The notes under the pieces are model-generated. The model did no database searches. It was not told the DNA's origin and was given only the letters and a program-made list of their open reading frames with translations. Positions 23,608 through 53,643 of a DNA stretch of 64,000 nt are shown in pieces; position 1 is the stretch's first letter, and the number at the start of each line of letters is the position of its first letter. Both the position numbers and the translations under genes were made by a program. The stretch is from Rhizophagus irregularis (taxonomy: Eukaryota): contig NC_089435.1 in assembly GCF_026210795.1 (NCBI RefSeq), forward strand, positions 4,774,001 through 4,838,000, in the 5' to 3' direction.

Positions 23608-23740
23608 GTTTTTTGCAATTATCTCAGTATCCAGTGATCCAATTCATGCGATTTTTTTTTTTGTAGAGCTCAATAAGAGCCTAAAACAAAAAAAGTTCGT
23701 ACAAATTGGACTACTGGATATCAAAATAATTGCAAAAAAC
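23608..23740. repeat. ~130-bp imperfect palindrome / foldback
   Basis: gttttttgcaattat...tatccagt.tccaatt pairs with aattgga.actggata...ataattgcaaaaaac around a central gctc-aataa-gagc. Confidence 0.7.
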
Positions 23741-25460: not shown

Positions 25461-27055
25461 CAGTCACCCCTCTCTACAGCGAACCTCGATATAGCGAATA
25501 ACATGATATAACGGATCATACAGTGTGGTACCGATTTTAAATATGAAAAAAACCTTGATATAACGAAGTTTACTATTTATTTACCATATAACGTAGTACG
25601 AAGTAAAGTGTGTGAATTTCTTATATAAAAATGCCTCTCGATATAACGGATTTTTTTTATAACGAATTTTTTTCAGTTATAACGAAGAATTTCTTTATAA
25701 TTAAATGTAATTATTAATAAATATTGATGCATTATGACATTAAATATCACCCCTGTGTTTTATATTTAAATTATGGATCAGGATTGTATCGGGATCGTAT
25801 CAGGATTAATAATTCTGGCTATTTTATTTAATATTTAGGCAGAATTACATTAATTTACATTAATTCGGTTGTATTAGGATTCGATGTGAATTGTTATTAA
25901 TTTATATTTATCAGAGGGGGTAAGGACACTCCTAGTTAAATTAATATATCATTAATAATTTATTTATTATATAGTCAGTTATTGTTAAACAGCATTCCTA
26001 CAAAAAAAAGGAATTATAATAAACATTTTTATATAGAACACTTCAGGAAGCATTCCCTATAATAAAAAAATAAAAAAGAACATTAGTAAATGTTCTTAAA
26101 CGAAATAAAAAAGAAAAAATTGAGTTGTCCCACTTACTTGCTTTGTTCTCGAGCGTTCATTTCGAAGTCCCCACAATAAAAAAAAATAAAAAAGAATATT
26201 AGTAAATGTTCTTAAACGAAATTAAAAGAAAAAATTGAGTTATTTTGCCATTCTTGTCTCGAGCGTCCATTTCGAAGTCCCCACAATAAAAAAATAAAAA
26301 AGAACATTAGTAAATGTTCTTAAACGAAATAAAAGAAAAAATTGAGTTGTCCCACTTACTTCTTGGTCCCAAGCGTCCATTTCGAAGTCTACAATAAAAA
26401 AAATAAAAGAAAAAAGCATTAGTAAATGTTCTTAAACGAAATTAATAAAAAAAATCGAGTTCCCCACTTACTTCTTGTTTCAAGCGTCATTTCGAAAGTC
26501 ACAATAAAAAAAAATAAAAAAGAACATTAGTAAATGTTCTTAAACGAAATTAATAAAAAAAATCGGGAGTTCCCCCACTTACTTCTTATGCTTAAGCGTC
26601 CATTTCGAAGTCCAGGAAGTTCCCTATAATAAAAAAATAAAAAAAGAACATTAGTAAATGTTCTTAAATAAAAAAAATTGAGTTCCCCACTTACTTCTCG
26701 TCTCAGGCATCCATTTCGAAGTCCAGGAAGTTTCCTACAATAAAAAAAATAAAAAAAGAACATTAGTAAATGTTTTTAAATGAAATTAATATAAAAAACC
26801 CCCCAGTTCCCACTTACTTCTCATTCTAGGCATCTATTTTGAAGTTTAGAAAGCACCCCTATAAAAAAAAGATTAAAAAAAATGTTAAATTATCGGTAAT
26901 CAGATCAACAAGTCACATGATCTGTATAACCGATATTCCTATACCGAAGAATTCATTATACAATACCGAATAATTCGTTATAGTGTTAACGAAGTTGCTT
27001 ATAACGAAGCCCTGATCAGCTGGAACCTAGGGTTCGTTATATCGAGAGGGGACTG
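25461..27055. mobile_element. Non-autonomous Tc1/mariner (pogo-like) element carrying a ~120-bp tandem array
   Basis: TA|cagtcacccctctc...gagaggggactg|TA ends; subterminal (g)atataacg(a/g)a repeats in both orientations. It interrupts an aaactaat-rich repeat that continues on both sides. Confidence 0.85.
26045..26862 (-). repeat. Array A: 7 x ~115-125-bp units with micro-exon/intron architecture
   Basis: Seven copies of the plus-strand palindrome aagaacattagtaaatgttctt. On the minus strand, six units have GTAAGT donors, there is a TACTAAT branch-like motif and T-tracts, and TAG acceptors are present in some units and mutated in others. Confidence 0.85.
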
Positions 27056-27752: not shown

Positions 27753-28067
27753 TTGTAACAGCCTGTTACATATCTTATTTGTAACATCCTTTTTTTATTT
27801 TTTTTTAATAATAAATTTAATATATGTTTCACAAATAAAATTTTTATATGCAAAATTTAATTTGGAAAACTTTTACTTAATGTACTTAAAACAGTTTCAT
27901 AGACAAAATTTTAAGTTATAAGCAGTTTCTTGAAATTTTTTAAAAAATTCTTTTGTTTTAGTTACACAACTGATCTTTTGTTTTTGTTTACATTACGCCT
28001 GATCTTAAATTTTAATTGGATAAAATTGGGAGTTGTTACAAATAAGACGCGTAACAGGCTGTTACAA
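27753..28067. repeat. Inverted repeat pair, probable decayed MITE core
   Basis: ttgtaacagcctgttacatatcttatttgtaac (27753) is mirrored by gttacaaataagacgcgtaacaggctgttacaa (ending ~28067). Confidence 0.65.
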
Positions 28068-28299
28068 TTAGATTTATCCTATAGTAATAATAAAAGTAAA
28101 ATGATTTTTATTTCTAATAAATTTTATCTTTAATAAATATTAATACTTTATAATTTAATTTTTTATTTAGATTTGCAAAAAAAATTAAAATTAAAAGTTA
28201 AAATCAAAATATTTTAGTTTTAAAAGTCTAAATTAAAATTAAAATCAAAATTAGTTAAAATTATATAATATTATATAATTTAAATAATTATAAAATATT

Positions 28300-28600
28300 T
28301 TTTTAGAAGTATTTGTTAGTGAATTTTACAATATCATCTGGCAACCACATTGTAAGGCAGTAGCAGAATGGGAACATACTAAAGACATAAAAAAACAAGA
28401 TTTAAGGAAAAGGCCATTAGCATATCAACGCATTGCATACAAACGGATTCTAACTATACAAACAGAAGAGGGCACGTTTGACTTGGAAAAAAGGAAAATG
28501 TTGAAACATAATGAACAATGGTCAATAGCATTAGAAAAAACAAAACAATACATTAATCAATTTATTAGAGAAGGAAACAGGGTACTTTGGAAGGTATATA
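28300..28600 (+). pseudogene. Coding-like remnant, possibly the 3' end of a non-LTR retrotransposon ORF
   Basis: GC-richer island reading ...IIWQPHCKAVAEWEHTKDIKKQDLRKRP..., with no start and AT-rich flanks. The family assignment rests on recollected similarity only. Confidence 0.35.
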
Positions 28601-29625
28601 ATAATACAAAATATACAAATATAATATAACCTTTCTTTTTTTTTTTATCTAGAGGGTTTTACTTAAGTCTTATGAAATAGTGATCCTATATAATTTAATA
28701 GCTACTATTGAAGAATATAGGTGAATTTCATAAGGTAATGGTAAGGCACAAAAGCAATTTTTTGGATAGGGAACTGGTTTTGAATTTTAATAAATTAGTT
28801 ATATAACAGATGTTTTTTTATATTCTTACATATAATTAATAAACTTACAAATTGCACTACCTTGGCTAAAAAAAAAAAAAATAATTATAAAATAATAAAA
28901 TTTTAAATTACAATAATTTATCAATATTAAATTTATTTGAATTAATATTAAAACTATAAATATATTATTTAAAATTTTAAATTCTTTTAATAAATAAATT
29001 AAATGATATAAAAATTATTAAAATCTAATCACTAAATACTAAAATTATAAATAAAATGTCTAAATATTTTAGTAAAAATAAAATAATTAATATAAATACT
29101 ATTAGTATACTTTTATTCATTTTAATTAAAATTTTTAAATAAGTTATAAATTATTAAATTCTGATTATTAAATGTTAAAATATCCTTAAAATATCTTTAT
29201 TATTAAATTTTAACCATTTTGATTTTTGAAAAGTATTTTAATAAATTTAATAAATATAAAACAAATTTATATCTATTAATTCATTTATCAAAGAAATCCT
29301 GTACCTTTTGTTATTCAAATAAATTCCATATGTATTTTATTAATAAATCATTTATCTATTTATAGTAAGTATATAAAAAACTCTTAATCTATGACTTTAT
29401 AAGTAATTTAAACTATATTATTTTGTAAAAAAAAATAATTAGTATAATAATTATATTAAATTTAATATATAATGGAATATTATATAATTTTAAATTCAAT
29501 AATTTTATATATAAATTATTTTATTTTATAAAAAAAAATATAAGTATTTTTATATAACAATATATATATATATATTTAAAAAATATTATTTTATAATTAT
29601 AAAATATATTTTTATATAAAAAATA

Positions 29626-29909
29626 GGGATTAAAATTTGAACGCACCTGTGTTTTAAATGCATCCCTCTATTTTGGAAATTTTTATATAATAAAAATGCT
29701 GATCATTTTATCATGTGATACCGGCGAATTTCTGATTTTTTTGAATAAACACAATTTATACCTTATACACTTATAAATAAACTCATATTATATGTGTATT
29801 TTGCCTCCTCTACAACTTTACTTACTATGACAAAGGGGGTTTAAAACTTCATTTTTGACTTATACCATGGGAGTGCATTCAAATGCAGGTGCGTTTAAAT
29901 TTTAAACCC
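29626..29909. mobile_element. MITE with ~40-bp TIRs, TA-flanked
   Basis: ta|gggattaaaatttgaacgcacctg...caggtgcgtttaaattttaaaccc|ta. Confidence 0.8.
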
Positions 29910-30017
29910 TAAAAAATAAATAATATGAAATTTAATATTTTTTAAAAAAATAATTTTTTTTTAATTTAACAAAAAAGTTTTGATATTTATATAAATAATT
30001 AATAAAAAATAAAAGAA

Positions 30018-30278
30018 AATTTCTAAGTTTACACGGGATGTTTGTACACAGGTCATATAAATATAATTTTTAATAAACTAATTTTTTGTTTTTTAATTTG
30101 AAATTGAATGCTACCAACATTATACTCTTTTACTTTTTATTCTTATTATATTACAAATAAATATATATATTTTCACCTGCTCTGCAAGTTTACTTAAGAC
30201 ATTAAAGAAGGTTTTGAATGCCATTTTTAATCTACTAATATGACCTGTGTTTAAACACCCCGTGTATAAATAGAAATT
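30018..30278. mobile_element. MITE with ~40-bp imperfect TIRs
   Basis: aatttctaagtttacacgggatgtttgtacacaggtcatat...atatgacctgtgtttaaacaccccgtgtataaatagaaatt. A related solo end lies at ~22335-22377. Confidence 0.75.
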
Positions 30279-33002
30279 GCCAAAATAAAAATATATAATT
30301 TTAAAATAAGCAATTTTTTAAAAATTATATTAAGTATAATTTAGTATACTTATAACACTTATAAGGTATATTTGCTGTTTGGATAGAGTGCAAATTATTT
30401 ATTATAGGTTTGATTCTTATAATTTTTCCTTTAAATAAAAAGCATTGCTTTCTTTAAGTATAATAATAAAAATTCTAATATTTTTAAAAGAATTTTTCTA
30501 ACTATCACCGGGATGATGATCACTGATGACTGAAATTATGACGATCGACTAGCATTAAAAAAATAGAGTGCTGGTAAAATTTGATAATTCTTTTTTAAAT
30601 TTTATGTTATTTTTATATTTTCAATACTAAAATTTTTTTTTAATTTTCTTTAAATAAGCAAATATTTTTTGAATTTATTACAAATTTTTTTTATATAAAT
30701 TTGTATTAAAAAATTTCTAATATTAAAAATTCAATATTTAAATTTAAACTGGTATTATAAGTTAAATTATAATAATTAAAAACCAATAAGAGATTATTTT
30801 ATATATTTTAAATATATATGTTTTATTCTTAAAAAAATAATAAATACTGTAAATTATTAACAAATATTTGATTAGGGTAATATTTTTTTTTAAAAAAAAT
30901 AGGATAGGATTTCTAACTTTAAATTTAGTATTAATGATTTCCAGAATATTGCATAATTATTTTTATTCTATAAATAAATGCACACCATCTTCAGTTAATT
31001 TTAAGTAACTAAAAAGATGACCTTTCATTAAGAAAGTAATCTGGATAAATCATATAATTAGAATTAATTATTAGGCAAAATTATTTATTAAATGGGAACG
31101 ATAAGTATCAATGAGCTCATAATGATGAATTTCAAAATAACTAGGAAGTGGAGGATTTAATGTAACTATATCGGTTTAGACGCACCTATGAATTTTACAT
31201 CAATTTAATTAGTTAAAAATTAAAAAAAAAAAGTTACGTGCTGTTACGTAACAATACATACATTTAGTCATAAATTGAATTGTTTGCGTACTTTTATATC
31301 CGGAAATTTTAATGAATTCTTACAATTTTAACCCTCTTTGTAATTTATAACTTCGATGTGATGACTAAAAAATAATCCAAATCTGGTTATTAACTTTGGC
31401 TATCTTTAAAATAACTTGTTTGAGGCTTTTTATTTTCCCATTTGGTTATATATGACTACTTTTTTTCTTTACAAATAAAATTAGAAATTTAATGTATATC
31501 GGACTCGAAATGATCAATCGGAAAACAATATGAATTTTCCTAGGGAAAAAAAAAGAATTCTTTTTTTTTAACCAAAATTAGTGAGATCCCGGATTTCTCA
31601 CAAAGCCCCATTCTTATTATATAATAAAAGAAAAAAGTCACAAATACAATACCAAACTAAGCCAAACTAAGTCACATTTGTAAAATCATTTAATTCATAC
31701 TAAGCCGGATTTTCTCCCCATTTGTAATTTTAAAAAAATAATTAGTTTAGAATCTAAACTGAAAACATTTTGGGCTTTAAATTCGATGATTCATACAAAA
31801 GTATACAAATTATATCAATGATACCATAAAAAAAAAATATGTACATAATCTTTTAGATCATCATATTGATGAATGAATGGGATGATCAAGTCGAAAGATT
31901 TATGCAGAATTTGTAAGTGAACGAGCTACATAAAAAATTGTTCTGAATATTCAAAGAGAAAAAATCAAAAGTAAGCGTTAAAATCATAATAAATGTGATT
32001 AAAAAATTCTTAGAATTTAATAAAAAAAAAGTATTATTTATAAGAAAAAAAACCCCCCAATTCACCATTCGGTCACACAATTGAATCACATGATTTTAGA
32101 CGGTTTGATTGTCGATCGCAACCCTAATTACGAATTATCCATGTTCAATTATGGTCCCAGTCCACAATCAATCTAAAAATGAGAAGGGAACTTAAATATA
32201 AATATTTTTTAAAAAAATTGCATTCTCCAAAATGAAAATTCCATTTGGAAAATGGCCCACTAACTAAAATCGAATGATCATTTATGTCATTATTGTTCTA
32301 AAAAAAGGTTCAATTAAAGTTCAGAAATTTTTTCTCATTGTGTTTACAAATAAATACAAAAAGTCATGCGAACAAGATTATTTATGTGACACAACTCTTT
32401 TGGCACATTTTTGTAAATTTGTGCAATATTTACATATAACACTACATATTTTACCATTTAATGATTATATTATTTATCGTCATAAAAACATGAGATTGAT
32501 AGAAAAAAAAAGGCAGTGGAGGCTTAGTATGATATATAAGGTGGCTTTGTTCCCGATATATTAAGCCATTTATGTTGTTAAATAATCGATTCATTAAATA
32601 TATACTGATAAATCCATAAAGGGAAAAGATCAATCAAGATCAATCAAAGATCAATTAACAGTAAATTTAAAAAAATATACACTTATTCTAAAATTTCCTT
32701 TCATGTAGGCAAAAAGTAATAATAAATTTTATTTATTTATTTTTTTTTTTTTTACGTATCAATTTCATTTTAAAAATAAACTTAATCGAAAAAATCTTTC
32801 GCGTCTCTTCTACTAAATTCTCATAAAACGCGTAAAAAGTACAGGTAATATAGTTACATTTATAATAAGCTCCCGACTTTTATTTCAATTAGAACTTCCC
32901 AACCTTAATTTTTATAACATCGAATATAATAATAATAATAATATATATATTTTTTTTGTATATAAGCAAGTAGTGGGAAAATTATTAAAGGGTTATATTA
33001 AT

Positions 33003-33630
33003 TTAAGCAAATATAGCACCAAGAATTACAGCTGCGAATGAAACTCCGACTTCGGCTTTAAGACTGTTTCCGGCTCCTGTTGCTGATTTGGCAGGTGTGC
33101 TTCCTGATGCTCCTGCTGGAGCAACTGATGTACCTGTTCCTCCACCTGGAGTAGGTGCGGCTGTTTTCGCTGGTGATGGTGCTGCTCCTTCTGGTGGTGG
33201 TCCTGCTGGTGCTCCTCCTGCTGGTGGTGCTCCTCCTGCTGGCGGAGCTACTTTACCCTTAGCATCACCTCCTGCATCTTTGGGTGCATCTTTGGGTGCA
33301 TCTTTGGGTGCTCCTTTGGCTCCATCTTTAGGTGCTCCATCTTTGGGTGCTCCATCTTTGGGTGCTCCATCTTTGGGTGCTCCATCTTTAGGTGCTCCAT
33401 CTTTGGGTGCTCCATCTTTAGGTGCTCCATCTGGTGGTGGTGCTCCTGGTGCTGGTGCTGGTGCTCCTGGTGCTCCTCCTGGTCCCCTATTATCACAATA
33501 CAAGAAGTTTATTTTATCTATTCAGTCATTAAAATTTTTTTCTTTAGGAAAAAACTTACTGTGCAGCAACGCAGGCAATCAATACGGTGAGAACAATAAG
33601 AAGAAAGAAGATACGATTATTAAATTTCAT
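33003..33630 (-). CDS. AGL: GPI-anchored arabinogalactan-protein-like (AGL) protein with APKDG repeats; 2 exons
   Basis: Exon 1 (33630-33560) is the signal peptide MKFNNRIFFLLIVLTVLIACVAAQ. After a GTAAGT..TAG intron, exon 2 encodes GPGGAP...(APKDG)x7...SATGAGNSLKAEVGVSFAAVILGAIFA* (GPI-type C-terminus). Confidence 0.92.
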
Positions 33631-34776
33631 TTTATAATTTGATGAAGGTTATCAGAAAAGAGATAATTGGAAAGAAAAGGAAAAAGGGCTCATATTTATT
33701 AGTTTTTTTTTTCGAATATTTGTTTATATCCATATTTCCTTTTTACGGAAACATCTCCGGGATACATTTTTGAAACGTTACACTTCATTTACTTGTTGGC
33801 GTTAAAATAACGCTTTTTGGCAAAAACTGGTGGCTATACTTGTGCGTTTTAAATTCATTTATTATACAATGGTATCATTACACAAAAAAATCGGGTCCAA
33901 CAAAAAATATTCATATTTTATTTTTAGATTTTATTTAAATTTTTGTAGATCATTTTTAAGTTATTAATTAGTTTATATATATATATATTTGTTATAAATA
34001 AAAGGTTATCAAAATTAACGCCACTGAAATAATAAATTGTATTCTATATTTTTATGAAATGATTTTTTTATAATTTACCGTATATAACTTTAAAGACAAA
34101 AAGTGTACATGAATGCAACCGCATGGAGACATTCCCTCATCACTATGAGAGGTACTCACTAGGCAGTGTAGCAAAAATTATGATTGGAGTTGCGAATTGT
34201 GTCATGTGTATTTTAATAAACTAATAGGAAGCCGGTGTGTAATTTTCAAAAATAAATAGGAGAGAATTTGTGTTTCCGTGCAATTAGATTGTTTGACATT
34301 TTAGTATATACTGTTATATTGTGGGATTGTGGGATGACTATAGTTAATAATTCAATTCAGATATTCACAAATGAATATCAGACGATCAGAATCGGTTTAA
34401 CACATAACTGGCCAACTTCAGATTTTATTATGTACTCCATAATTCAACATTGCATGTTTTGTCACCGTTAACAACTGAGAATATTAATTTGATGGTTATG
34501 CTAACGAATAAATGCTAGATTATGTTCGTAAAGATGTGATCAAATAGTCATCTATTTACCATTCGGAATTTCGGATAAAAAAAAAATTGACCCAAAACAT
34601 TTGTGGAATTTATATTAAGAGAAAAAAATCTCTCGTTTTTTTTTTGATTTTTTCGTAAAACGCGGTATTAAAGAATTATCATATATCGATTTTTCAATTA
34701 ATTAAATCACGATTTTACTTTGGCAATTAACCTTGCTTTGGAACTAAATGACCCAATAAAAAATCATAGAAATTGA

Positions 34777-35133
34777 TCACACGTCATCGTTCGCTGTTTG
34801 TGGTATGATTGATGATGTTTCTGCTGGTGGTGGTGGTGCTGGATCTGGTGGTGGAGCGCCTTCTGCTGGTGGGCCAACTGCCTTGCCTTTAGCTTTAGGT
34901 TCCTCTCCTTTAGGTGCTTCTTTACCTTTAGGTGCTTTACCTTTGGGTGCTCTGGGTGCTTTCCCATCACCTCCCGGCTCCCGGTGGTGGTGCTCCTCCT
35001 GCTGGTGGTACTGGGTTCTCCTGGTCCCCTATTAGAGACGTATACTGTATTTATTTATTTATTTATTTATTTATCCATCAATCAACACAATGAGAACAAT
35101 AAGAATAAAGATTATAATTTTATTGAATTTCAT
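34777..35133 (-). pseudogene. AGL pseudogene
   Basis: Starts MKFNKIIIFILIVLIVLIDG*. The end of exon 1 and the splice donor are missing, the acceptor aatag|gggacc is retained, there are two frameshifts early in exon 2, it has APKGK-type repeats and it lacks the GPI signal. Confidence 0.8.
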
Positions 35134-36807
35134 TTCTTATAATTTATGTCGGTTATAAAATGAAAAAAAGATCTCGTATTTATTAAAATTTTTTTATGTT
35201 TCTTTTTTTTTACGGAAACATCACTGGGACACATTTCGAAATAAAATAAACGGCTTGCAATGATATCGTTACATAAAAAATCAGGAAGGGGCTTGTTTTT
35301 TTATTTAATTTATTAGATATTTTTAGTCATAACAGATATTCATCCAAATAAAAATTTAAATTTAATTATATTTTGTTATAAATAATATGTTTGAAACGCC
35401 CACTTGAAATTTTGTAAATAACAAATTGCATATTAAGAGACTTAAATATTCAAATCATAATTTTATTTATTATTAAAAAAAGGGGGGTTTTGAAATAAAA
35501 GTAATCTCTAACCATAAAACAGCCAACCAGTTTTCTAATTCCAGAAAATGCTCAAATATTTATCTTAAAGATAATATCTAAAAATAAAACAAAAACAAAA
35601 CAAGGTAAAAATAAACGCGACGACATTGGAAATTATTTTGAAGTCAGATAGCCAATATGTTAAAAAAAATGACCGCTTAGAATCGATATTCGTTAAATCG
35701 ATTCCAGATAAAAAAACATACAAATGATCTTGTTAAAAAAAATTGTGAAAAATATGAAAAATAAAATTATGAAAATATCTGTTTCCAGTTAATCTAACTC
35801 CGCCGGTGGCCGATTGTCATTACTCTGGCCTGGTGGGACATCAAAGAAGAAAAAATAAAAAAAAACAAAGTAAATTTAGTCGCTTGGAGGAGACAATTCT
35901 TTACTAAGCAATGTAGCAGAAAATAGAATTTATAATAATACGCGGGAATCATACGTATTTTAGTAAACAAAAAATAAAGAGATTGACATTTTAATTATAT
36001 GAGATACATATAAAGTGCATCACAAATAGGGATGTAAAATTTACCGTAATTTATAAATTTTATTGTTACGTTACGGTAATTTTCTATGTTACGTTACATT
36101 ATGTTATTGTAACATAAAATTTTTTTTTAATCAAAATCTGAAGAAACAATAAATTCCAATAAAAAAATGATATAAATATAAATACTGTAATTCTAAATGA
36201 ACAAAAATGCGACAAGATTGCAGGAATATGTTAAAACTTGTATGATAAGATCATAAAAAAAGTTGAATCCGAAACTGTAAAACATGATAATGAGCCACTT
36301 TTTATTTGTTAATGTTTGTTATAAATTATAAACTTGGCCAAGATTAAGGTAATACTGGCTGAATTATCTTAATTCTGGTAAACATATCAATACATATCAA
36401 TGTAATGGTGTTACATAGATTTCAGGCCGAAATTGATTTTATTATATGAATTAATTTTATCGTAATACGATTGATAAACTAAAGCGCGGGTATTAGGGAA
36501 TTATTATATAAGAAAACAAGAGAAAATGAAAATACGAAAAAAAAAATCCTTTTATTATTATTATTATTCACGCGATAAAGTTGAATTAAAATTAACAAAT
36601 TATTATACTATTTTCCAACCCATAATTATTAACCAAAAAAAAAGATCTATTGTTTGGTAACTAAGTAAAATCTAATGTTCGAAATTTTTTTATTTCGATC
36701 ACGACGCTATTATTATCTATTTTTAAACACAGTACAGATCATAGTATTTATAATGTCTATAATTACTACAAAGAAAAATATTATAGATGATAGAATTATT
36801 AATTAGT

Positions 36808-37344
36808 TTAAGCGAGGATAGCACCAAGAACGGCAATAGCAACGAATGAAACTCCAATTTCAGATTTAAGAGAATTTCCGGATCCTGTTGCTGTTGTTCC
36901 TGGTGATGATTTTGGTGCGGCAGCAGTCCCGCTTGATGTTGATGGTGTTGCTGCCGGTGGTGATGCCGAACCTGATGGTGTTACTCCTGGTGGACCTCCT
37001 GCTGGTGGAGTGCCTGGGGCAGCTTTTCCTGCATCGCCTGCTGGAGCTTTACCGCCAGCTGGAGCGCCTCCTGGTGCTGGAGCTGGAGCTTTTCCGCCTG
37101 GTGCTGGTGCTGGTGCTTTTCCCGCGTCACCTCCTGGTGCTGCTGGAGCTTTTCCGTCGCCTCCTGGTGCTGGTGCCCCTGGTACCCTATTATCACAAAT
37201 ATGAGGATTTATTTATTCAATCATTATTAATTTTTTTATTTATTATTTTTTTTTTCATGGGAAAAAAACTTACTGTGCAGCAACGCAGGCAATCAATACA
37301 ATGAGAACAGCAAGAAGAAAGAGGATGCGTTTATTGAATTTCAT
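36808..37344 (-). CDS. AGL: GPI-anchored AGL protein (GGDGKAPA/APAPGG repeats); 2 exons
   Basis: MKFNKRILFLLAVLIVLIACVAAQ|VPGAPAPGGDGKAPAAPGGDAGK...ATGSGNSLKSEIGVSFVAIAVLGAILA*; same intron position as its paralogs. Confidence 0.9.
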
Positions 37345-39161
37345 TTTTTATAATTTTAAGTGGGTTAATGAACAGAGATGGTTGAAAAAAAGAAGAAAAA
37401 GGTCTCGTATTTATTAGATTTTTAACGGAAACTTCTCCGGGACACATTTGCCGGTTGGCGGTAAAAAAAGTAACGCTTTTTAGTAAAAACTGTATTAATC
37501 ATTACACAAAAAAAATTAAGGGATATTTATTTTTAGATGTTTATTATTCTGAAATGAATTTTTTAAGCTAGATCATAAATAAAAATTTACCCGACGAAAA
37601 TATTTGATATAAATAAAAGACCATAAAAAAAAGAAACTTTATTATAAACGAACGCCTATTGTTAAGGTTCGTAAATAATAATAAATTGCATATTATTAGA
37701 TATTATTAGAAACCCAAGGATCAATATTAGAAATCTTGTAAATTTTAATTTAATTTATTTTTGACTTTTTTTTTCAGATTAATAAGATTAATTATATATA
37801 GCAAATTTTAAGTTGTTCAAAAAAAAATGATTGAAAAAATAAAAACTGTGAAAATGTCCTTTTCTAGCTAGTTTAATTCTGTTATTGGATTATGATTCAT
37901 CCGGTTATCCATCCGGTTAATTTTTTGAATGAATATTACAAATAGATAAATCTTAAGAATTATTCGCCGCAGATGATTTTTATGATGCCATAATTGCATT
38001 TAACTATTACATTATTATGTTAAAGTTTCGGAAATTTATGATTATTCGGATCCTCAAAATTTCCAACGAGTTATTCTCTATTGTCCATAGAGTGCACAAA
38101 ATTAAGTTTGAATATTCATTCGGATTAATATTATCCGTTTTTTTACCTTCTATTTGGGAAATAAAATACTTTTTTTTTCTTTACAGTTATATACAGTGTT
38201 TATATCCGAGTTTGTCCTATCCTGTTATATTGGCAGATATCCAGTATTAATAAGATATCGCATATAGATTATATGACCTAAAGGATATCCAGATATTATT
38301 GTATCTAATCAAACGGATGTTCTATTAGGCCTTCATAAATTCCTAATGCCGAACATACCTGCCAAAATTAACCGTAATTCCGGCAGAAATGGTATAATGC
38401 TAATATTCATACCAGAAAATCATTGAAATTAGAATTTACTTTTTATTAGTAATTTTATTATTGTGAGGAGCAAGTGACCGTTAAACATCCGCCAAAATGA
38501 CGGATTTAACCAAAAAAATTTTTGGTGGTTATCCGGATATAAAAATTCTTAGCAGTAAACTTAACCGGATACAATCAAAATAATTATTACTAAAAAAACA
38601 ATTGATCCAAGTGGTGGCGCGAACAAATTTTGGTGTGATCAAAATAATTATAAAACAATTGATCCAAGAGGTGACGCGAACAAATTTTGGAATTTACAGT
38701 AGATTAAGCGAAAAATTTTCGCGGTTTATCTTTATCTGTGTTAATGGTAAATTTTGTTGAATATTTTTGTTCAAAAGCTTAGGGCTTGGTTAAAAGGATT
38801 TCGATCAAAACACAGTTTAAGTCATTATGTTAATTTTATCACGTAATACGTTTTTAAACTTTAAAAAAAATTAAATCTTAACTTTCATAAGACGCAGTAT
38901 TAGAGAATTATTCAAAAAAAAAATTTTCGTTGCAAATTATTATTATTATTCAAGCAAAAAAGGTTTAATTTTTTTATTTAATTTGACATTAACGCACGCT
39001 TCAACCCACCAAAAAAAACCTTATATATATTAATCTATTTTTTATTTTCCGTCACAGCAATATTATTAATTATTATTAAATATAAATATTATTTATAATT
39101 TCTATATAATTTTATAATAAAAATGTTCTTTTTGATGTTTTGATGATAAATTATTAATTAA

Positions 39162-39915
39162 TTAAGCGAAGATAGCACCAAGAACGGCAATGGCAGCGAA
39201 TGAAACTCCAGATGATTTAAGAGTATTTCCGGATGATGCTGCTGCTGCTCCTCCTGTTGATGATGTTTTTGGTGCGGAAGCAGCACTGTTTGGTGGTGGT
39301 GGTGGTGGTGTTGCTGTGCCTGCTGGTGTTACTCCTTTTGGACCTCCTGCTGGTGGAGCTCCTGCTGGAGCAGCACCTGGAGCAGCACCTGGAGCAGCAC
39401 CTGGAGCTGGAGCACCACCTGGAGCAGCACCTGGAGCTTTTCCGTCAGCTGGAGCTTTTCCATCAGCTGGAGCTTTTCCATCAGCTGGGGCTTTTCCGTC
39501 GGCTGGGGCTTTTCCGTCAGCTGGAGCTTTTCCGTCAGCTGGAGCTTTTCCATCAGCTGGAGCTTTTCCATCAGCTGGAGCTTTTCCGTCAGCTGGAGCT
39601 TTTCCGTCAGCTGGGGCTTTTCCGTCGGCTGGGGCTTTTCCGTCAGCAGCACCGTCAGCTGGGGCTTTTCCGTCGGCTGGAGCTTTTCCATCAGCTGGAG
39701 CTTTTCCGTCAGCTGGAGCTTTTCCGTCAGCTGGAGCTTTTCCGTCAGCTGGTCCTCTATTATCATAAACAAGAAATATTTTTTATTTATTAAACTATTA
39801 AAAAATTTATTATTATTTTTTTTTTCAGGGAAAAAAAAACTTACTGTGCAGCAACACAGGCAATCAACAAAGTGAGAACAGCAAGAAGAAAGAAGGTACG
39901 TTTAGTGAATTTCAT
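39162..39915 (-). CDS. AGL: GPI-anchored AGL protein with ~17 APADGK repeats; 2 exons
   Basis: MKFTKRTFFLLAVLTLLIACVAAQ|GPADGKAPADGK...AAASSGNTLKSSGVSFAAIAVLGAIFA*; 18-nt repeat at 39435-39750. Confidence 0.92.
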
Positions 39916-41491
39916 TTTTATTATTATAATATTATGTGGGTTTGTGAGTTAATGAATATGAATGATTGAAAAGAAGTGGAATGATTGAAAAAGAGAGGAA
40001 AAAAGGCTCGTATTTATTAGATTTTTTCTCTCAACCTATATTTCCTTTCTTGGAAGTGTTCCCGGGATACATTTTGAAACGTTACACTTCATTTAATGCT
40101 TGGCGTTTAAGGAACAAACGCTTTTAGCAAAAACTGGTTGGTATCATTACACGAATAAAATTAGGTTTATTTTTAGATATTTTATTATGAAATATGAATT
40201 TTACTCGACGCAAGTTTAATTAGTTAATATTTAATTTGTTAAGAATATAAGGCTATCAAAAAGCAACTTTACCATATATGAACTCCACTGAAATTAAATT
40301 GCATATTTATCGGCAATTGAGTTAGTAAAAAAATGGGTTTGTTGAAAAAATTTTTTAGATTTATAAATTTTTGATTATAGAAAATTTTTTTATCGCATGT
40401 AAAGGATAAAAAAGGATAAAAAGATAAAAATATAATCATGTTACTATATTGAAAAAATAAAATATCCATTTCTAGTTAGTAGTTACTCTGCTAATGGGCG
40501 ATGCTAAATTTAAATGCCCCGTCACCCGAATACTTATTTTTTTGAGATACCCGAAGACTACATCTCAATGTAAAATCAAAATCTTTGTTCAAGTAGAGGG
40601 AAATTATAAACGGATTGAATTTGTCATCTATCTGAATTAATTTTAATCAATTTTAATTCCTCTTTATTATTATGTTAGGACAGGTCATAATTCTCGCAGT
40701 CGCTCCTATATGTAACATATAATCAAAAGGTGCCTAGTCATTCGAGCCGTCTAATTCGTCTAATTAGAATTACAAAGAAGAAAAATAAAAAAAAACAATC
40801 GTTCCAACACATATGCAAGATAAATATAACTGCATACCGTGACAATTCTTTCCTCCAAAGAGAGCACTAGGCAGTATAATACGTAATACACGAATGTACC
40901 ATACTATATAAACTTATTGCCGTTTCGGTCATTCGATCATTTGACACAAATTTCCAAGCCACGCCGCCGATCACATACGAAACTTTTTTTTTTCTAATAA
41001 AGTATTTTTTAATCTTTTTTTTATGTTCCGATAAATAGACTCTATACACACTATATACTCCGAACTCGAAGTCTTTTTACTAGAAACAACTCAGTATATT
41101 TACTGCTTAACTTTGAGATCACACTTTAGATCACACTTTAGATCTTCGATCACACTTTCTTTGGGTTATTGAATAACGCCAAAATGGCACCGTAAGTAGT
41201 AATAAGAAATGCTTTTTGTCGTATTTAAAGACGATAATTGATATTTTCAAAGTTGTGTATCATATATTTATTTGTAAAAAATTGTTTTTAGGCGCTTAAT
41301 ACACTAATTATCATATTTTAATACATTTTAAAACTATAGACGGTAAAAACAAGTCAAGAAAGTAGTATTATTAGTTGTTTTATAGGTTTTGTATATGAAT
41401 TATTTACTTGCTAATATTTTGTTAGCATGTAGTAATATTTATGTAATTTTGTATAGAAACTTTTTAATTAATCTATACAATTTATTAAATA

Positions 41492-41679
41492 CAGCCAGAC
41501 CTCCATAATTGCACACCCCTTGGGACCATATGCATAATTTTCAAAATAGTGCATTTAAAGAGGGTGTGCATTTATAGAGGTAAAATAATTAGAGATCATA
41601 TAAGAACCAGAGGGTGCATTTAGAGAGGGTATACATAGTGGGTGCAATTATGGAGAGTGCAATTATAGAGGTCTGACTG
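41492..41679. mobile_element. pogo/Tc1-like MITE, TA-flanked
   Basis: ta|cagccagacctccataattgcac...gtgcaattatagaggtctgactg|ta; internal gagggtgcattta repeats. Confidence 0.85.
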
Positions 41680-42969
41680 TATTGTGTAGAATTATTATTA
41701 TTTTAGCACTATTGAATAAAAATTATAAGAGAATCTAATATATTAGATATAAGGTAATAGATGATTTTATACTTAAAAATACTTGGATTTTAAATAGATC
41801 AAATAGATCATATTTTTAATTTTTTCGTTTATAATCTATTTTTCAGTTCTTACATTTGAATAAATTTATACAAATAATTAATTATTAATATTTCAATTAA
41901 ATATAATAGTTTCCAACCTTTATTTGCTTTGGTTATTATGTCTGTACTGAAAATTTTAAAGCAGTATAAGAGCGCAGAGCGCGGCACGTTTAAGTTTATA
42001 TACATACATCTGATTCTGAGATATATAATAAAGTAAACGCATATTGTTATCATGTGACTGGTTGTGTTTTTTTTGTGCTGCAATGATCGGTTAGGAGTAA
42101 TAAAGATGACAATGGCCTAGTTAAAAAATAAACAAATAAATAAAAAGATAGTTTGTGTTTCTTTGCAATTAGAATGTTTGACTTTAGATATTCAATTTTT
42201 AAACAATGGTGCTTAACACCTTAGTATGTGTTTTCGCAAAAACTATGGCCTAAATTAAAGAAATTGTAACTTTTTTATACTGCAAATGTTAGCAAAAAAT
42301 TTAATACATACATAATATGAATTTTAATTATTATATTATTAACTACTACTAATATTGTAGAATAAAACACCCACTGGTATGATTGGTATGATTTATAAAT
42401 AATTTTTTATTTTATATTTGCATTAATGAGATAATATCGGAAAGGAAATCGACCACTTAGATTGGGACGAACAAATTTTGGGAATTTAGAGATCAAGCGT
42501 TTTCGCGTTGTTTTTTATTTTACTAATATTATTATTATTATTATTATTTATTTATCGTGCGGAATGTGGGTTATTAGAGGATTATAATATTAAGAAAAAT
42601 AAAAAATGAAAAACCAAAAAAAAAACGATTACAAATATCTATTACGCGAAGTAAGTTGGGATTTTTATTAGAAATTAACGCGTTTACTTTGGAAACTAAT
42701 TATTATACTATTTTCCAACCCATAATTATTAATCAAAAAAGACCTTATTGTTTAAAAAGAGGAACTAAATCTAATAAAAATATAATATGAAATAATAAAA
42801 AACTATTTAAATTAATGTTCGGAATTTTGTTTTTGGTCGTATCACTATTATTATTTATTATTAAGCACGGTAAATATAATATAATAACTTTATAAAGTGT
42901 ATATAATTATTACAAAAAAAAAAAATCTTTTTTTTTATGATGGTAAATTATTAAATCTAATTAATTAAT

Positions 42970-43742
42970 TTAAGCGAAGATAGCTCCAAGAACGGCAATG
43001 GCAGCGAATGAATATCCAGATGATTTAAGAGAATTTCCGGATGATGCTGCTGCTTTGGCTGATGCTGATGGGGCTGCTCCTCCTGCTGGTGATGCTGCTG
43101 GTGTTTTTCCGTCAGCTGGGGCTGGTGCTTTTCCGTCTTTTGGAGCAGCACCTGGAGCTGGAGCAGCACCTCCTGGAGCAGCACCTGCTGGAGCTTTTCC
43201 GTCAGCTGGAGCTTTTCCGTCAGCTGGTGCTTTTCCGTCAGCTGGTGCTTTTCCGTCAGCTGGAGCTTTTCCGTCAGCTGGAGCTTTTCCGTCAGCTGGT
43301 GCTTTTCCGTCGGCTGGTGCTTTTCCGTCAGCTGGTGCTTTTCCGTCGGCTGGTGCTTTTCCGTCAGCTGGTGCTTTTCCGTCAGCTGGTGCTTTTCCGT
43401 CGGCTGCGTCTGGTGCTTTTCCGTCAGCTGGTGCTTTTCCGTCGGCTGGTGCTTTTCCGTCGGCTGGTGCTCCGTCAGCTGGTGCTTTTCCGTCGGCTGG
43501 TGCTCCGTCAGCTGGTGCTTTTCCGTCAGCTGGTGCTCCGTCAGCTGGTGCTTTTCCGTCAGCTGGTGCTCCGTCAGCTGGTCCTCTGTTATCATAAAAA
43601 AGAGTGATTTGATTAACAACTTCACCATATTATATTAATTATTCTTTTCTTGAATAATAATTGTGAAGGAAACTTACTGTGCAGCAACGTAGGTAACTAA
43701 AGCGAAGAAAATGGCGAGAATAATGAAGATGCGTTTATTCAT
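42970..43742 (-). CDS. AGL: GPI-anchored AGL protein with APADGK and APADG repeats; 2 exons
   Basis: MNKRIFIILAIFFALVTYVAAQ|GPADGAPADGKAPADG...AKAAASSGNSLKSSGYSFAAIAVLGAIFA*. Confidence 0.92.
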
Positions 43743-49162: not shown

Positions 49163-50161
49163 TATAAACTTAAAAGTGAAACTGACTTTTTTTTCTTTAT
49201 GTTTTATAATGTTATTTAGAATGCTTTATTGAAATTATATAAATAAAAGTTACTACAGCAATTTAAAAATACACAAATAGAAAAACCATTTATCATAAAA
49301 GACTATTGATTAAGGATAGATTAACAGTTAATAAACAAAAAAGTAAAACTGAATTTCTTTTATATTTTATATATTAGTATAGTATAATAATAAAAAAAGT
49401 TTTATAAGCCTAATAAAAATAAATTAAATATCAAATGTGATAAATTGAATTTCTTTAGTTAATAGACTTTTATTAATAATAAAATCAGCTTTTTCAAAAT
49501 GGAATTTATATTTGAATTTTTATATATGGATTGATATAATGTAAAAGATTATTATTTAATTTATACTAGTATTATATACTAAAATTATTTAAAATTTTTG
49601 ATTCAATTATTATAATAGTTAAAAAACTCTTAATATTATACTATATATTTATATATTAGTAAATAATAAATAATGAATTTATACTGAATTTATGGATTTT
49701 ACTAATCAAATTACTAGTAACTAATAATATAAATCTATTTAAATTTAATGGTTTATTTAATTTAATGTATTATTTATGTTTTATACTATTACATATTTTA
49801 TATATTTATAAAGTTTTACATAACAGAAATAAAGTTAATTACTTGTTTATTTAATTAGACTTTTTTTTTAAATAATATATTTTTAATAACAGGCATTTAT
49901 AATTTTCTCAATTATTAAGTAAAATTTATTACAAAATCTAAATAAAAATTTTTTGCTTCTATAATAATTTATTATTATATAAACAATTATTAAAATTTTT
50001 GTAAGTTGACATTTATTAATAATTCACTTTACTTTTTTTCTTTGGTAATATTAGTTTACTTTATTACTCTACTAGTAATATACTTTTACTTTATTTTACT
50101 TGCAATTTTTACATTACTATATCATCAGAATTAAATAAATAAAATACTAGTATAAAATAAG

Positions 50162-52195
50162 TAAGGATGGGCCCGCAAATAATTTCCAAAATCCGCAATA
50201 TTGCGGATTTTGGAGCTGAATTGCGGTTAGTAACCCGCAATTCCGCAATTCTGATTGGCTGATAATTAAATTTTTTTCTAATGATAATTTAATAAAAAAC
50301 ACACCGGTTTTATAAATATAAATTTAATCAAAAAAAATTTTTTAATAAATTTATTTATTTATTATTTATTAGAAACAATAAACCATAATTTCTGAAATGG
50401 CGCAACTGCACCAAAAACTAAATCAAACACAGACAACAATGGCGAACTTAATAATACTAATCAAAGTTCTGGGCTGGAATCTACAAAAAAAAGTGAAAGA
50501 ACGTTAATAAACGTTCTTACATAAAAAAAACATAAAAAACCTTGCTTCCCCCTCTAAAAACACCTACCGGTCTTTATTTCCAAGTTCCAGGCCGGAATCT
50601 ACAAAAAAAAGAAGTAAAGAACGTTAATAAACGTTCTTACATAAAAAAATAAAAAAACCCCGCTCCCCCCTTTAAAATACTCACCGGTCTCCATTTCCAA
50701 GTTCCAGGCCGAATCTACAAAAAAAAGAAGTAAAAGAACGTTAATAAACGTTCTTACATAAAAAAACCAAAAAAAAACCACTCCCCCTTTTAAAATACTC
50801 ACCGGTCTCAAGTTCCAAGTTCCAGGCCGGAATCTACAAAAAAAAGAAGTAAAAGAACGTTAATAAACGTTCTTACATAAAAAAACAAAAAAACGGCTTC
50901 CCCTCCCTTTAAAATACTCACCGGTCTTCATTTCCAAGTTCCAGGCCGGAATCTACAAAAAAAAAAGAAGTAAAAGAACGTTAATAAACGTTCTTACATA
51001 AAAAAACAAAAAAAACTGCTTCCCCTCCCTTTAAAATACTCACCGGTCTTCATTTCCAAGTTCCAGGCCGGAATCTACAAAAAAAAGAAGTAAAAGAACG
51101 TTAATAAACGTTCTTACATAAAAAAAAATAAAAAAACCCCTGCTCCCCCCCTTTAAAATACTCACCGGTCTCCATTTTCAAGTTCCAGGCCGGAATCTAC
51201 AAAAAAAAAAGAAGTAAAAGAACGTTAATAAACGTTCTTACATAAATAAAACATAAAAAAACCCCGCTTCCCTCTTTAGAAACACCTACCGGTCTTTATT
51301 TCCAAGTTCCAGGCCGGAATCTATAAAAAAAAAAGAAGTAAAAGAACGTTAATAAACGTTCTTACATAAAAAAATAAAAAAACCCACTCCCCCTTTAAAA
51401 TACTCACCGGTCTCAAGTTCCAAGTTCCAGGCCGGAATCTACAAAAAAAAAAGTAAAAGAACGTTAATAAACGTTCTTACATAAAAAAACAAAAAAAATT
51501 GCTTCCCCTCCCTTTAAAATACTCACCGGTCTCCATTTCCAAGTTCCAGGCCGGAATCTACAAAAAAAAGAAGTAAAAGAACGTTAATAAACGTTCTTAC
51601 ATAAAAAAAACAAAAAAAAAACCCCCTTCCGCTTCCCCCCTTAAAATACTCACTGGTCTCCATTTCCAAGTTCCAGGCCGGAATTTACAAAAAAAGAACG
51701 GTGTTGTTTTTTTTAAAATGAAAAAAAAATTTAAAATTGCGTAATGCAATTCTTATTTGATTTGTACTATGCTATCCGATAATCTAATCCAGATCATTAA
51801 CTATTAATATCAATAACCGTCGAATTAACTGGCCGGTATATTTTTTCTAAAAAATAAATGACTTTTTTTAAAAAATTTTATTAATGAAAAACCGAATTTT
51901 TTTTACTTTTAGTAATAAGAAGAAATCGGTTTCTTTATTAGTTAATTAAAAAAATTACATTTATTAAAAAAAATTGTTCTTTTTTTTGCGGGCAATCCGC
52001 AATTCCGCAAATAATCCGCAATTCCGCAATTAATTACGAAATTGCGGATCATTTGCGGAATTGCGGAAAAATTGCGGAATTGCGTCTAATTACGGATTGC
52101 GGAATTGCGGATATATAGACTTCAAAATCCGCAATATTCCGCAATACCGCATATCGCAAATATTCCGCAATTACTTATTTGCGGCACCATCTTTA
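50162..52195. mobile_element. Non-autonomous hAT-like element carrying a 10-unit tandem array
   Basis: TIRs taaggatgggcccgcaaataa / ttatttgcggcaccatcttta; 8-bp TSD aaaataag at 50154-50161 and 52196-52203; dense subterminal ccgcaat/attgcgg repeats at both ends. Confidence 0.92.
50481..51684 (-). repeat. Array B: 10 x ~120-bp units, each a 31-nt micro-exon plus a ~85-96-nt GT-AG intron-like segment
   Basis: Minus-strand unit: tag|attccggcctggaacttggaaatggagaccg|gtgagt...G-run...aagaacgtttattaacgttctt...T-tract...tag. Example: exon 51527-51557, intron 51439-51526. Confidence 0.9.
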
Positions 52196-52244
52196 AAAAT
52201 AAGTAAATAAAATAAATTTAACAAATTAAGTAAATCAATAAATA

Positions 52245-52714
52245 AATTAATTTGTAATTCATCTAGTAAAAATCAGAGCAAATTATAAAAATTCCTATAT
52301 AAAATTGAAGGAAGCAATTAAAAATATTATCTTATAATCTAGTAATTGGATTTCAATAAATCTTTAAACTATTTTATAATTTTTAATACCTTTTTTAAAA
52401 TAAAAAAAAAGATATTCAAAATTGGACCAATATATTATGAGATAATTACAAAAAATTACTTTTGCAAAAAAAAAGCAGATTTGAAATTTGAAAGCTATTT
52501 AAATAATTTTTGACAATTATCTTACAATTTATTAATCCAATTTTAAATATTTTTTTTTTTTATTTTGAAAAGAACATAAAGAACATTGAAAATTACAAAT
52601 TAACTTAAAAATTCATCAAAATCCAATTACTGAATTATGAGATAATGCTTTTAATTATTTTTTCCAATTTTTATATAATAATTTGCTCTGATTCTTAGGT
52701 GAATTGTAAATTAA
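52245..52714. mobile_element. Decayed TIR element adjacent to the hAT element
   Basis: aatttgtaattcatcta...aatcagagcaaattat is mirrored by ataatttgctctgatt...taggtgaattgtaaatt. Confidence 0.55.
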
Positions 52715-53643
52715 GCAAATTTAATAAAATTGAAAAAATCAAAAAAAAAATTGAGTTGAGAAAATTTTTTAGTATAAATAGCCAATTAATAACTTTTTAA
52801 ATAAATATTACTAGTGGTGGTTGTTATTATACCAGCATTAGGACAGAATTTCACAACATTTTTAATTCTACCCGGAAATCATTATAATTTTTCTAATAGC
52901 GGTTTGTCCAACCTTTTAAGCAAAAGATAAAAAAACTGAATGAAATAAGTATTGGTAAATTGTCCTAATTATAACATTATTACAACATTTACATAATTTT
53001 TTTGAAATGTTTAAATTAAAAAAATCCACTGCCACATATTATTTGGAGAAATTTTAATTTTAATTCTACACAAGATTTGTAACTGTGTCCTCAAATTTCG
53101 TAATTTATTTTAACAATAATTTTTGGCATGACAGATTATAAATAAGTATAAATATATTTTTTGTCAGTATGTATAGTATATTATACTTTCTTGACCTTGA
53201 CCCTCCGACAACAAGATGTCGTTCACTCAGGACCTCGGACAATTATAATCAAGGTCATATCCCTTATGTTAAGAATTTTCAAAAATTTATTATTACCATC
53301 TTGAATTTATTTTAAAAGATATAAATGTAAAATTTTAATAAAATAGTTGCCTTCCTACTATTTATAACTTTGTAATTTAAAAAGTAATATTTAATAATAT
53401 AGTTTTTTATTTTTTTGAATATTTCTATGTATACCGATAGTATATTTTTTTGCCAAATTTTGTCTTGTTACACGACTTTATCTCTAATTTTAATCAGTAA
53501 ATTTGCATAATTTTGGTATCAAAAGATTCTTTCTTTAAAAGAACCATTTTTTTCTATATTATTTTATAATATTAACTTAATAAAATTATAAGATAAATAA
53601 TGTATAAAGTTTAAAACATAGTCGGATATGACCTCAACTATAA

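What the first reader, a model, noticed from the sequence alone, without database searches (positions are those of the whole stretch)
50481..51684. Transposon-borne tandem array of micro-exons and hairpin-containing spliceosomal introns (array B)
Seen: this apparent 120-bp minisatellite has full splice architecture on the minus strand in all 10 units. Each unit has a donor (GTGAGT x8, GTAGGT x2), a G-run, a perfect 9-bp stem (AAGAACGTT-tatt-AACGTTCTT) overlapping a TATTAAC branch-like motif ~25 nt from the end, a T-tract and a TAG acceptor. The intron lengths match this genome's real introns. Homopolymer lengths and the post-donor segment vary freely, while GT, AG, the hairpin and exon length (31 nt, one 30 nt) are kept. 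The consensus 31-mer is open in all three frames (IPAWNLEMET/DSGLELGNGD/RFRPGTWKWRP), but full splicing from the first ATG reaches TGA in the sixth exon. Inference: a heavily spliced non-coding or short-ORF transcript carried by a non-autonomous hAT element. Possible roles are a source of intron-derived small RNAs, a spliceosome-recruiting device that helps the element avoid or trigger silencing, or an intron-generating module.
Basis: partly seen in the sequence, partly recalled or inferred. Interest (0 to 1): 0.9.

Follow-up and report, generated by a model that had tools for sequence, protein, structure and literature searches.

The report
Spliced micro-exon cassette riding fungal transposons
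A small jumping-DNA element in what is likely a mycorrhizal fungus carries ten tiny exon-intron units in a row; look-alike units sit beside the transposase genes of unrelated transposons and close relatives are spliced in RNA, which likely lets these parasites pass as intron-rich host genes and would help them avoid silencing.

Summary
Confirmed and wider than reported. Ten minus-strand units (30-31-nt exon, 86-96-nt GT-AG intron, 9-bp hairpin over the branch motif) lie in a 2,034-bp non-autonomous hAT-type element (8-bp TSD) of, likely, Rhizophagus irregularis. Public RNA reads join one exon to the next exactly at the predicted donor (102 reads in one run; 53-98 in three runs). The reads come from paralogues; this copy is not shown transcribed. 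In DNA loci 114 exon ends run into GT, none into an exon. One metagenome scan gave 242 units in 59 sources; 214 of 238 keep an acceptor (null 44). Exons vary from 16 to 62 nt without frame, so non-coding. Arrays flank hAT and MULE transposases in sense, antisense and outward orientation; a homologous array sits in a TA-flanked element in this window. Best reading (0.4, untested): cis-acting spliceosome recruitment that shields transposon ends from silencing. Small-RNA host, intron generator and coding readings lack support. Not found in ten paper searches; the scan had not noted it on other DNA.

The parts
50162..52195 (.). Non-autonomous hAT-type DNA transposon (2,034 bp) that carries array B
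   Evidence: 8-bp TSD, imperfect terminal repeats, no ORF of 90 aa or more; contigs of two other runs end their match at 52195
50154..50161 (+). Target-site duplication, copy 1 (AAAATAAG)
52196..52203 (+). Target-site duplication, copy 2 (AAAATAAG)
50162..50182 (+). Terminal inverted repeat, downstream of the array
   Evidence: 18 of 21 alike with the other end
52175..52195 (-). Terminal inverted repeat, upstream of the array
51972..52174 (.). Subterminal CCGCAA/TTGCGG repeats (likely transposase-binding; inferred from hAT knowledge, recalled); shorter set at 50183-50250
   Evidence: no RNA depth at 52008-52167 in X21
51685..51740 (-). Decayed intron 3' end before exon 1 (T-tract, TAA in place of TAG)
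   Evidence: 8 reads link 51729 to the intron T-tract at 51603
50481..51684 (-). Array B: ten exon-intron units; exons 51684-51654, 51557-51527, 51438-51408, 51320-51290, 51196-51166, 51074-51044, 50952-50922, 50833-50803, 50714-50685, 50598-50568
   Evidence: exon-to-exon reads of paralogues at 51527 and 50685
50497..51598 (-). Ten copies of the 22-nt inverted repeat over the branch motif (first 51598-51577, last 50518-50497)
   Evidence: predicted to fold in the centroid or near-centroid structure
50350..50480 (-). Putative last exon ending in a cluster of AATAAA motifs
   Evidence: low depth from paralogues at 50366-50470; 3' end not mapped
26054..26860 (-). Array A: seven homologous units with a compensated hairpin variant; partly decayed (3 of 7 acceptors and 1 of 7 donors lost)
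25461..27055 (.). Different non-autonomous element that carries array A (TA on both sides, CAGT termini: Tc1/mariner-pogo-like by recalled criteria)

Best explanation
Array B is a ten-unit exon-intron cassette inside a non-autonomous hAT-type transposon of, likely, Rhizophagus irregularis; close relatives of it are spliced in RNA, and it likely works in cis by loading spliceosomes densely onto a likely non-coding transcript near the transposon end, which would make the element look like an intron-rich host gene and help it escape silencing. Shown: anatomy; family-level splicing at the predicted sites; kept splice signals with free exon length; presence beside hAT and MULE transposase genes in three orientations and in non-autonomous elements of different end types. 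Inferred: that a promoter in or near the element drives the transcript; that the act of splicing, not the product, is what is selected; that this protects against RNA surveillance, RNAi or CpG methylation and keeps the ends usable; that the cassette spread between transposon families by capture and was expanded by tandem duplication.
For: These are RNA: X21 has no depth at 52008-52167, where contig depth in two DNA-like runs sums to thousands. In DNA loci 114 exon ends are followed by GT and 0 by an exon start. Selection on signals, not product: first AG after the hairpin is a YAG 10-28 nt away in 214 of 238 units (shuffle mean 44.5, max 59; opposite strand 13 of 234); donor-like site in 128 of 148 neighbouring pairs; 111 exons of 16-62 nt, length mod 3 = 39/29/43; TGGA enriched in 30 representative exons (z 8.8). 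Cis logic: arrays occur upstream-sense (L013, L023, L029, L031, L042, L052, L060), downstream-antisense (L003, L024, L028, L035, L061) and outward (L014, L038) of transposase frames, and are kept by two non-autonomous elements of different kind in this window, which would gain nothing from repressing their own mobiliser. CpG observed/expected is higher in the array than in the neighbouring gene in 8 of 12 pairs (weak). Precedent: introns are needed for mRNA survival in Cryptococcus (PMC5851062, passages) and protect from HUSH in human cells (PMC8770142, abstract); R. irregularis silences transposons by CpG methylation and small RNA (PMC8647823, passages).
Against: No functional test of any kind. 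This copy is not shown transcribed: only 70 of 1085, 90 of 1186, 48 of 615 and 40 of 305 laid reads are 99% or more alike, and depth is zero at 50262-50365 in X21-X23. Intron-containing reads are abundant in X21-X23 (donor-side intron depth 297, 357, 155 against exon 430, 464, 263; only 7 against 201 in X24), which fits slow splicing or antisense RNA as well; libraries look unstranded. The hairpin covers the branch site, which is odd for a device meant to splice fast. Array A has lost splice sites, so not all copies are under selection. CpG contrast fails in 4 of 12 pairs. In Gigaspora intronless Glomhopper copies are expressed more than intron-bearing ones, though in Rhizophagus only intron-bearing ones were detected (PMC13465315, passages). 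The four RNA runs are at most 3 samples in 2 studies. No HUSH-like system is shown for these fungi.
Confidence: 0.4

Rival explanations
1. Passenger leader: one ancestral 5'-leader exon-intron unit of a transposon promoter was expanded as a minisatellite, copied to the other end with long inverted ends, and swapped between elements; it is spliced because it still has the signals, with little function of its own.
For: The two ends of one hAT family are inverted copies (94% over 802 nt, 85% over 465 nt), so 'both ends' may be a by-product; array A is decaying; tandem homogenisation alone keeps units alike; variation in the hairpin is mostly CpG decay.
Against: Signals are kept while exons diverged into about 30 types and the intron middle changed freely; presence in hAT, MULE and TA-flanked elements is much for a neutral passenger.
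Confidence: 0.2
2. Self-restraint: the branch-site hairpin slows splicing, stalled spliceosomes and antisense arrays feed RNAi, and elements limit their own copy number in a clonal host.
For: Many intron-containing poly(A) reads in X21-X23; arrays aimed into the 3' end of transposase genes; 5' arm complementary to the branch region in 80 of 125 units chosen without it (null mean 1.8); Cryptococcus SCANR precedent (PMC5851062 passages).
Against: Signals are textbook-strong rather than weak; X24 is almost fully spliced; outward arrays and non-autonomous carriers do not make antisense to a transposase; mismatches at the variable stem pairs are as common as G-U pairs (28 vs 28, 29 vs 17).
Confidence: 0.17
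3. Read-through trap: the arrays catch transcripts that cross an element end, splice them and end them, so that no double-stranded or run-on transposase RNA forms.
For: Several arrays start with a T-tract and AG without an upstream donor; AATAAA cluster after array B; four public gene models join these exons to unrelated sequence (predictions only).
Against: AATAAA shows no sense bias after arrays: 22 of 37 sense, 29 of 37 antisense; ten introns are not needed for a trap.
Confidence: 0.08
4. DNA-level array of a palindromic protein-binding site (host factor or transposase helper); splicing is incidental.
For: Covariation at paired CpG columns (odds ratios 4.6 and 6.2 against 0.6 and 1.1 for unpaired ones) with no preference for G-U over mismatch fits DNA symmetry or palindrome correction; the motif has a heat-shock-element-like register (recalled, untested).
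Against: Acceptor, T-tract and donor are strand-specific and kept at fixed spacing; loop and spacing vary; reads are spliced.
Confidence: 0.07
5. Host of intron-derived small RNAs (mirtron- or snoRNA-host-like).
For: Tandem non-coding exons with a conserved intronic hairpin resemble such hosts (recalled).
Against: Stem is 9 bp and overlaps the branch site; no Rfam family at gathering score; no box motifs noted.
Confidence: 0.03
6. Short-peptide or protein-coding micro-exon gene.
For: 52-codon ORF from the first ATG; four R. irregularis gene models translate such exons; stop codons mildly depleted (z -2.3).
Against: Exon lengths ignore frame within and between arrays; models are singletons or nearly so, fused to unrelated pieces, no Pfam hit at cut-off.
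Confidence: 0.03
7. Intron-generating (introner-like) module.
For: Highly similar hairpin-bearing introns in many copies; L004 links a host aminotransferase donor to an array acceptor.
Against: Units travel with their own exon in tandem; no single copy inside an intact host frame among 13 loci read; L004 joins through a poly-T run at a contig end and may be a chimera.
Confidence: 0.02

Closest known systems
Non-autonomous hAT elements / MITEs with internal tandem repeats (recalled; hAT among recently expanded R. irregularis transposons, PMC8647823 passages)
   Same: 8-bp TSD, short terminal repeats, subterminal motif repeats, no transposase, internal minisatellite
   Different: The internal repeat is a full exon-intron unit, spliced in relatives, and shared with MULE and TA-flanked elements
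Maize MuDR (promoters in both long terminal repeats, convergent transcripts) and Ac/Ds or Spm splice sites near element ends (both recalled, no call)
   Same: Inward-facing transcription units at both ends of a DNA transposon; splice signals near ends
   Different: Those make proteins or remove the element from a host mRNA; here 3-13 repeated non-coding micro-exons, also facing outward
Intron-based self/non-self surveillance: HUSH (PMC8770142 abstract); intron requirement and SCANR in Cryptococcus (PMC5851062 passages)
   Same: Intron density or splicing speed decides whether a transcript is silenced
   Different: These are host defences; a transposon-borne intron cassette that answers them was not described in what I read; neither pathway is shown in Glomeromycotina
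Tandem exon-intron non-coding hosts of snoRNA or miRNA (SNHG14, C19MC; recalled)
   Same: Repeated short non-coding exon plus intron with a conserved element
   Different: No Rfam cargo, stem too short, element sits on the branch site, carried by mobile DNA
Introners, introner-like elements and sister stwintrons (PMC7789003, PMC8469720: search listings only)
   Same: Families of near-identical spliceosomal introns with secondary structure
   Different: Those insert singly into host genes; these stay in tandem with their own exon inside larger transposons
TET/JBP-carrying fungal transposons (PMC12730594 abstract and passages)
   Same: Cargo taken up by several unrelated DNA-transposon superfamilies, proposed to escape methylation silencing; one B-type array lies upstream of a TET/JBP-like frame (L045, below Pfam cut-off)
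   Different: Protein cargo there, non-coding splice cassette here; that paper has no hit for 'Rhizophagus', 'splic' or 'tandem repeat'

Membership tests
non-autonomous hAT element | 8-bp target-site duplication | tested here: met
   AAAATAAG at 50154-50161 and 52196-52203
non-autonomous hAT element | short terminal inverted repeats with subterminal motif repeats, no transposase | tested here: met
   18 of 21 alike; CCGCAA repeats; no long ORF
non-autonomous hAT element | autonomous partner with the same ends | tested here: inconclusive
   No locus matched B outside the array in the top hits; no genome held; other copies of the ends exist
U2 spliceosomal introns | GT donor, branch motif, pyrimidine tract, YAG | tested here: met
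   10 of 10 units; 214 of 238 family units
U2 spliceosomal introns | removed from RNA at those sites | tested here: inconclusive
   Met for paralogues; not shown for this copy; branch point not mapped
introner / introner-like element | single copies inserted in unrelated host genes | tested here: not met
   None in an intact host frame among 13 loci read; sample was chosen by motif and is small
snoRNA/miRNA host array | known or Dicer-size structured RNA in each intron | tested here: not met
   No Rfam match at gathering score; 9-bp stem
snoRNA/miRNA host array | discrete small RNA from the intron | not testable with these tools
   No small-RNA run offered; supplement search uninformative
coding micro-exon gene | frame-preserving exons in one long ORF | tested here: not met
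   mod 3 = 39/29/43 of 111; longest ORF in B 52 codons
plain minisatellite | no constraint tied to splice signals, no splicing | tested here: not met
conserved RNA hairpin | compensatory changes with G-U tolerated over mismatch | tested here: inconclusive
   Paired columns covary, unpaired do not, 5' arm kept, but mismatch is as common as G-U and almost all change is at CpG; units share descent

The most novel reading that the evidence does not exclude
Mycorrhizal-fungus DNA transposons of unrelated superfamilies share a portable, non-coding 'intron passport': a dense micro-exon array with a branch-site hairpin that recruits the spliceosome to counterfeit the intron-rich signature of host genes and so disarm silencing, with the hairpin as a switch between protective splicing and retention.
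Probability: 0.3. Interest if true: 0.9.

Novelty: categorically new. Interest (0 to 1): 0.74.

Why it matters
Hosts are known to use introns to tell self from invader; a matching counter-device on transposons has not turned up in my searches. Here is a concrete, abundant candidate that is already spliced in public data and sits in many families, so the question can be tested by comparing array-bearing and array-less copies in existing methylome, small-RNA and long-read sets of R. irregularis. It bears on how transposons persist in these long-clonal symbionts. Practically, it explains a class of repetitive 'hypothetical proteins' in Rhizophagus annotations (four found) as likely mis-called non-coding arrays, and gives a natural library of very short exons with strong signals.

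Tried and rejected
No whole genome is held, so copy number and presence in other strains were not counted. No RNA holder was listed by the run index; raw 2026 runs of the same species label were laid instead, on two stretches of two to three units each, never the whole array. The DNA-contig control showed no exon-to-exon loose end at 51527 in X15, X17 or X3, but 371 rows were hidden and the joint table did not show that junction for the RNA run either, so it is weak. Rfam: 20 weak matches, none at gathering score. Viral contigs: 0. Protein search with the unspliced 53-aa frame: none among longer proteins, one among near-length ones. Representative-protein search was still queued when I stopped: no result. 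Atlas search of the unknown L027 frame was unavailable. Small-RNA supplement of PMC6399891: 0 hits in 9 files, uninformative since few sequences are listed and are written 3' to 5'. m6A-motif (DRACH) enrichment in exons vanished against dinucleotide shuffles of representatives (z 1.0). AATAAA after arrays has no strand bias. L016's NUDIX frame is flank, not element. Bacterial promoter scan is irrelevant to a fungus. 25 singleton hits were dropped before the unit counts; about ten are chance matches in unrelated DNA.

Full report
Setting. The window is 28% G+C and eukaryotic: TOR, uricase and four Pro/Gly/Ala-repeat genes with APADGK and APKDG units over about 10.7 kb. That matches the RiAGL cluster of Rhizophagus irregularis (PMC8786786, passages), and the only proteins like the array's frames are labelled R. 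irregularis. The species is therefore likely, not proven. No whole genome was held.

Observation. All ten units are as described. They fill a 2,034-bp element, 50162-52195, with an 8-bp TSD, terminal repeats 18 of 21 alike and CCGCAA subterminal repeats. Contigs of two other runs match the element's end up to 52195 and then diverge, so the end belongs to a dispersed family. Against 12 host introns that I predicted by script (unverified), array introns are slightly long, richer in G+C and far more regular.

A second array. Array A (26054-26860) has a related exon core and the same hairpin with one pair changed on both sides, but lies in another element with TA flanks and CAGT ends. It has lost 3 of 7 acceptors and 1 of 7 donors, so copies can decay.

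Splicing. Four raw RNA runs of the same species label (at most 3 samples, 2 studies; unstranded by their read balance) were laid at 85% likeness on 49950-50725, and one of them with three contig sets on 51400-52330. Reads leave an exon exactly at the predicted donor and continue with another exon start: 80, 53 and 98 reads at 50685 in X21, X23, X24, and 102 at 51527 in X21. Joint rows show exon-exon-exon reads (55, 50, 48, 110 and 29, 28, 31, 29 in X21-X24) and part-spliced reads, intron-exon-exon (49, 29, 20, 36). In the first of these classes one junction is precise and the other carries three extra bases, which I cannot place without the paralogue's DNA. The reads are RNA, as X21 has no depth over 52008-52167 where DNA-like contigs are deep. 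In DNA loci 114 exon ends are followed by GT and none by an exon start; the contig control agrees but is weak (rows hidden). Against: most reads are 85-95% alike and depth is zero at 50262-50365 in X21-X23 (part of that stretch was skipped as repeat), so this copy is not shown transcribed. Intron-containing reads are common in X21-X23 (donor-side intron depth 297, 357, 155 against exon 430, 464, 263) and rare in X24 (7 against 201).

The family. One metagenome scan with a 21-nt motif gave 90 stretches, 89 stored; 68 of 89 show outer stem plus acceptor, neither of which was in the pattern. After dropping 25 singletons, 242 distinct units remain in 58 loci plus the window. The first AG is a YAG 10-28 nt past the hairpin in 214 of 238 (shuffle mean 44.5; opposite strand 13 of 234). 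A donor-like site follows in 128 of 148 neighbouring pairs (permissive list, no null). The 111 distinct exons are 16-62 nt, fall into 30 clusters and ignore frame (39/29/43); TGGA is enriched, DRACH is not. Units share descent, so these are counts, not independent events. The loci are not labelled by species; their composition fits Glomeromycotina, which is an inference.

The hairpin. Chosen by the 3' side only and outside the scan pattern, 80 of 125 units pair at 8 or 9 of 9 positions (null mean 1.8). Paired CpG columns covary (odds ratios 4.6 and 6.2; 3.1 and 2.5 in the 135 non-pattern units) and unpaired ones do not (0.6, 1.1). But mismatches are as common as G-U pairs, so an RNA stem, DNA symmetry and palindrome correction (recalled) are not told apart.

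Carriers. I mapped 24 loci picked for length or long frames. Pfam domains at cut-off: hAT in L003, L014, L024, L028, L031, L038, L061; MULE in L013, L035; weaker hAT-type hits in L029, L042, L052, L060; a TET/JBP-like frame below cut-off in L045; nothing for L027/L054. Arrays lie upstream in sense, downstream in antisense, or face outward (L014, L038). In two contigs both ends carry arrays as long inverted copies (94% over 802 nt; 85% over 465 nt); L076 shares flank as well and may be an assembly collapse. Other arrays abut several kinds of subterminal repeat. CpG observed/expected is higher in the array than in the neighbouring gene in 8 of 12 pairs. AATAAA has no strand bias after arrays.

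Mechanism. What is kept is the ability to be spliced many times in a short span; exon sequence, frame and orientation to the transposase are not kept, and non-autonomous elements keep the cassette. That points to a cis benefit for the element, most simply protection from intron-sensitive surveillance, for which there is precedent on the host side (PMC5851062 passages; PMC8770142 abstract) in a fungus that methylates and makes small RNA from transposons (PMC8647823 passages). I put this at 0.4; a passenger leader (0.2) and self-restraint through slow splicing (0.17) are live. No step of the function was tested.

Novelty. Ten paper searches (open-access and bioRxiv only) listed nothing that describes these arrays. 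Term look-ups in PMC8647823 (no 'intron' or 'splic'), PMC10234402, PMC12730594, PMC13465315 (74: introns in Glomhopper genes, no 'tandem', 'hairpin' or 'microexon') and PMC5751038 showed no mention; I saw passages, not whole texts. Repbase or Dfam entries and supplements that I did not open may hold the elements. Automatic annotation has called four such arrays hypothetical proteins. Earlier scan notes hold nothing on this family. The carrier is a known kind; the cargo fits no family that I tested, hence 'categorically new' for the structure, with the function open.

Noticed in passing
window 33003-43690 (-): Four arabinogalactan-like genes with APADGK/APKDG repeats, matching the published R. 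irregularis RiAGL cluster of 10.7 kb.
   Followed up: partly
window 25461-27055: TA-flanked element with the homologous, partly decayed array A; L010 shares its end (78% over 235 nt) but carries a different exon type.
   Followed up: partly
L045 3500-4300 and 4400-6385; also L008, L036, L066, L070: Beside B-type arrays, long T-rich repeats; in L045 they are acceptor-only units (T-tract, TAG, exon-like motifs, no donor or hairpin) on the opposite strand, upstream of a TET/JBP-like frame.
   Followed up: no
L001, L048, L064 (upstream of the matched units): Further tandem micro-exon units with other introns: hairpin-less ones (L001, L048) and a hairpin variant in shifted register with changes on both arms (L064).
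   Followed up: no
L027 3399-5123 (-), L054 3-1646 (+): Transposase-like frames with no Pfam match, with 9-13-unit arrays aimed at their 3' end; superfamily unknown.
   Followed up: partly
L004 1-200 (-): Host aminotransferase class V exon whose donor runs through poly-T into an array acceptor at the contig end: exon trapping or assembly chimera.
   Followed up: no
window 50681-50713 (reads): An abundant junction class with three extra bases after the exon end: alternative donor in a paralogue, or a 2-nt microhomology deletion.
   Followed up: no
window 50497-50518 and copies: The palindrome has the 5-nt register of a heat-shock element with two imperfect inner units (recalled motif, untested).
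   Followed up: no
window 22400-30500 and 52200-52760: Dense nest of further small inverted-repeat elements (for example arms 24250-24321 / 24431-24502, 99% complementary) around arrays A and B.
   Followed up: no
window 15029-15729 (-): 36-nt tandem repeat encoding an Arg/Asp/Glu/Ser-rich stretch in a gene that looks cactin-like by recall.
   Followed up: no
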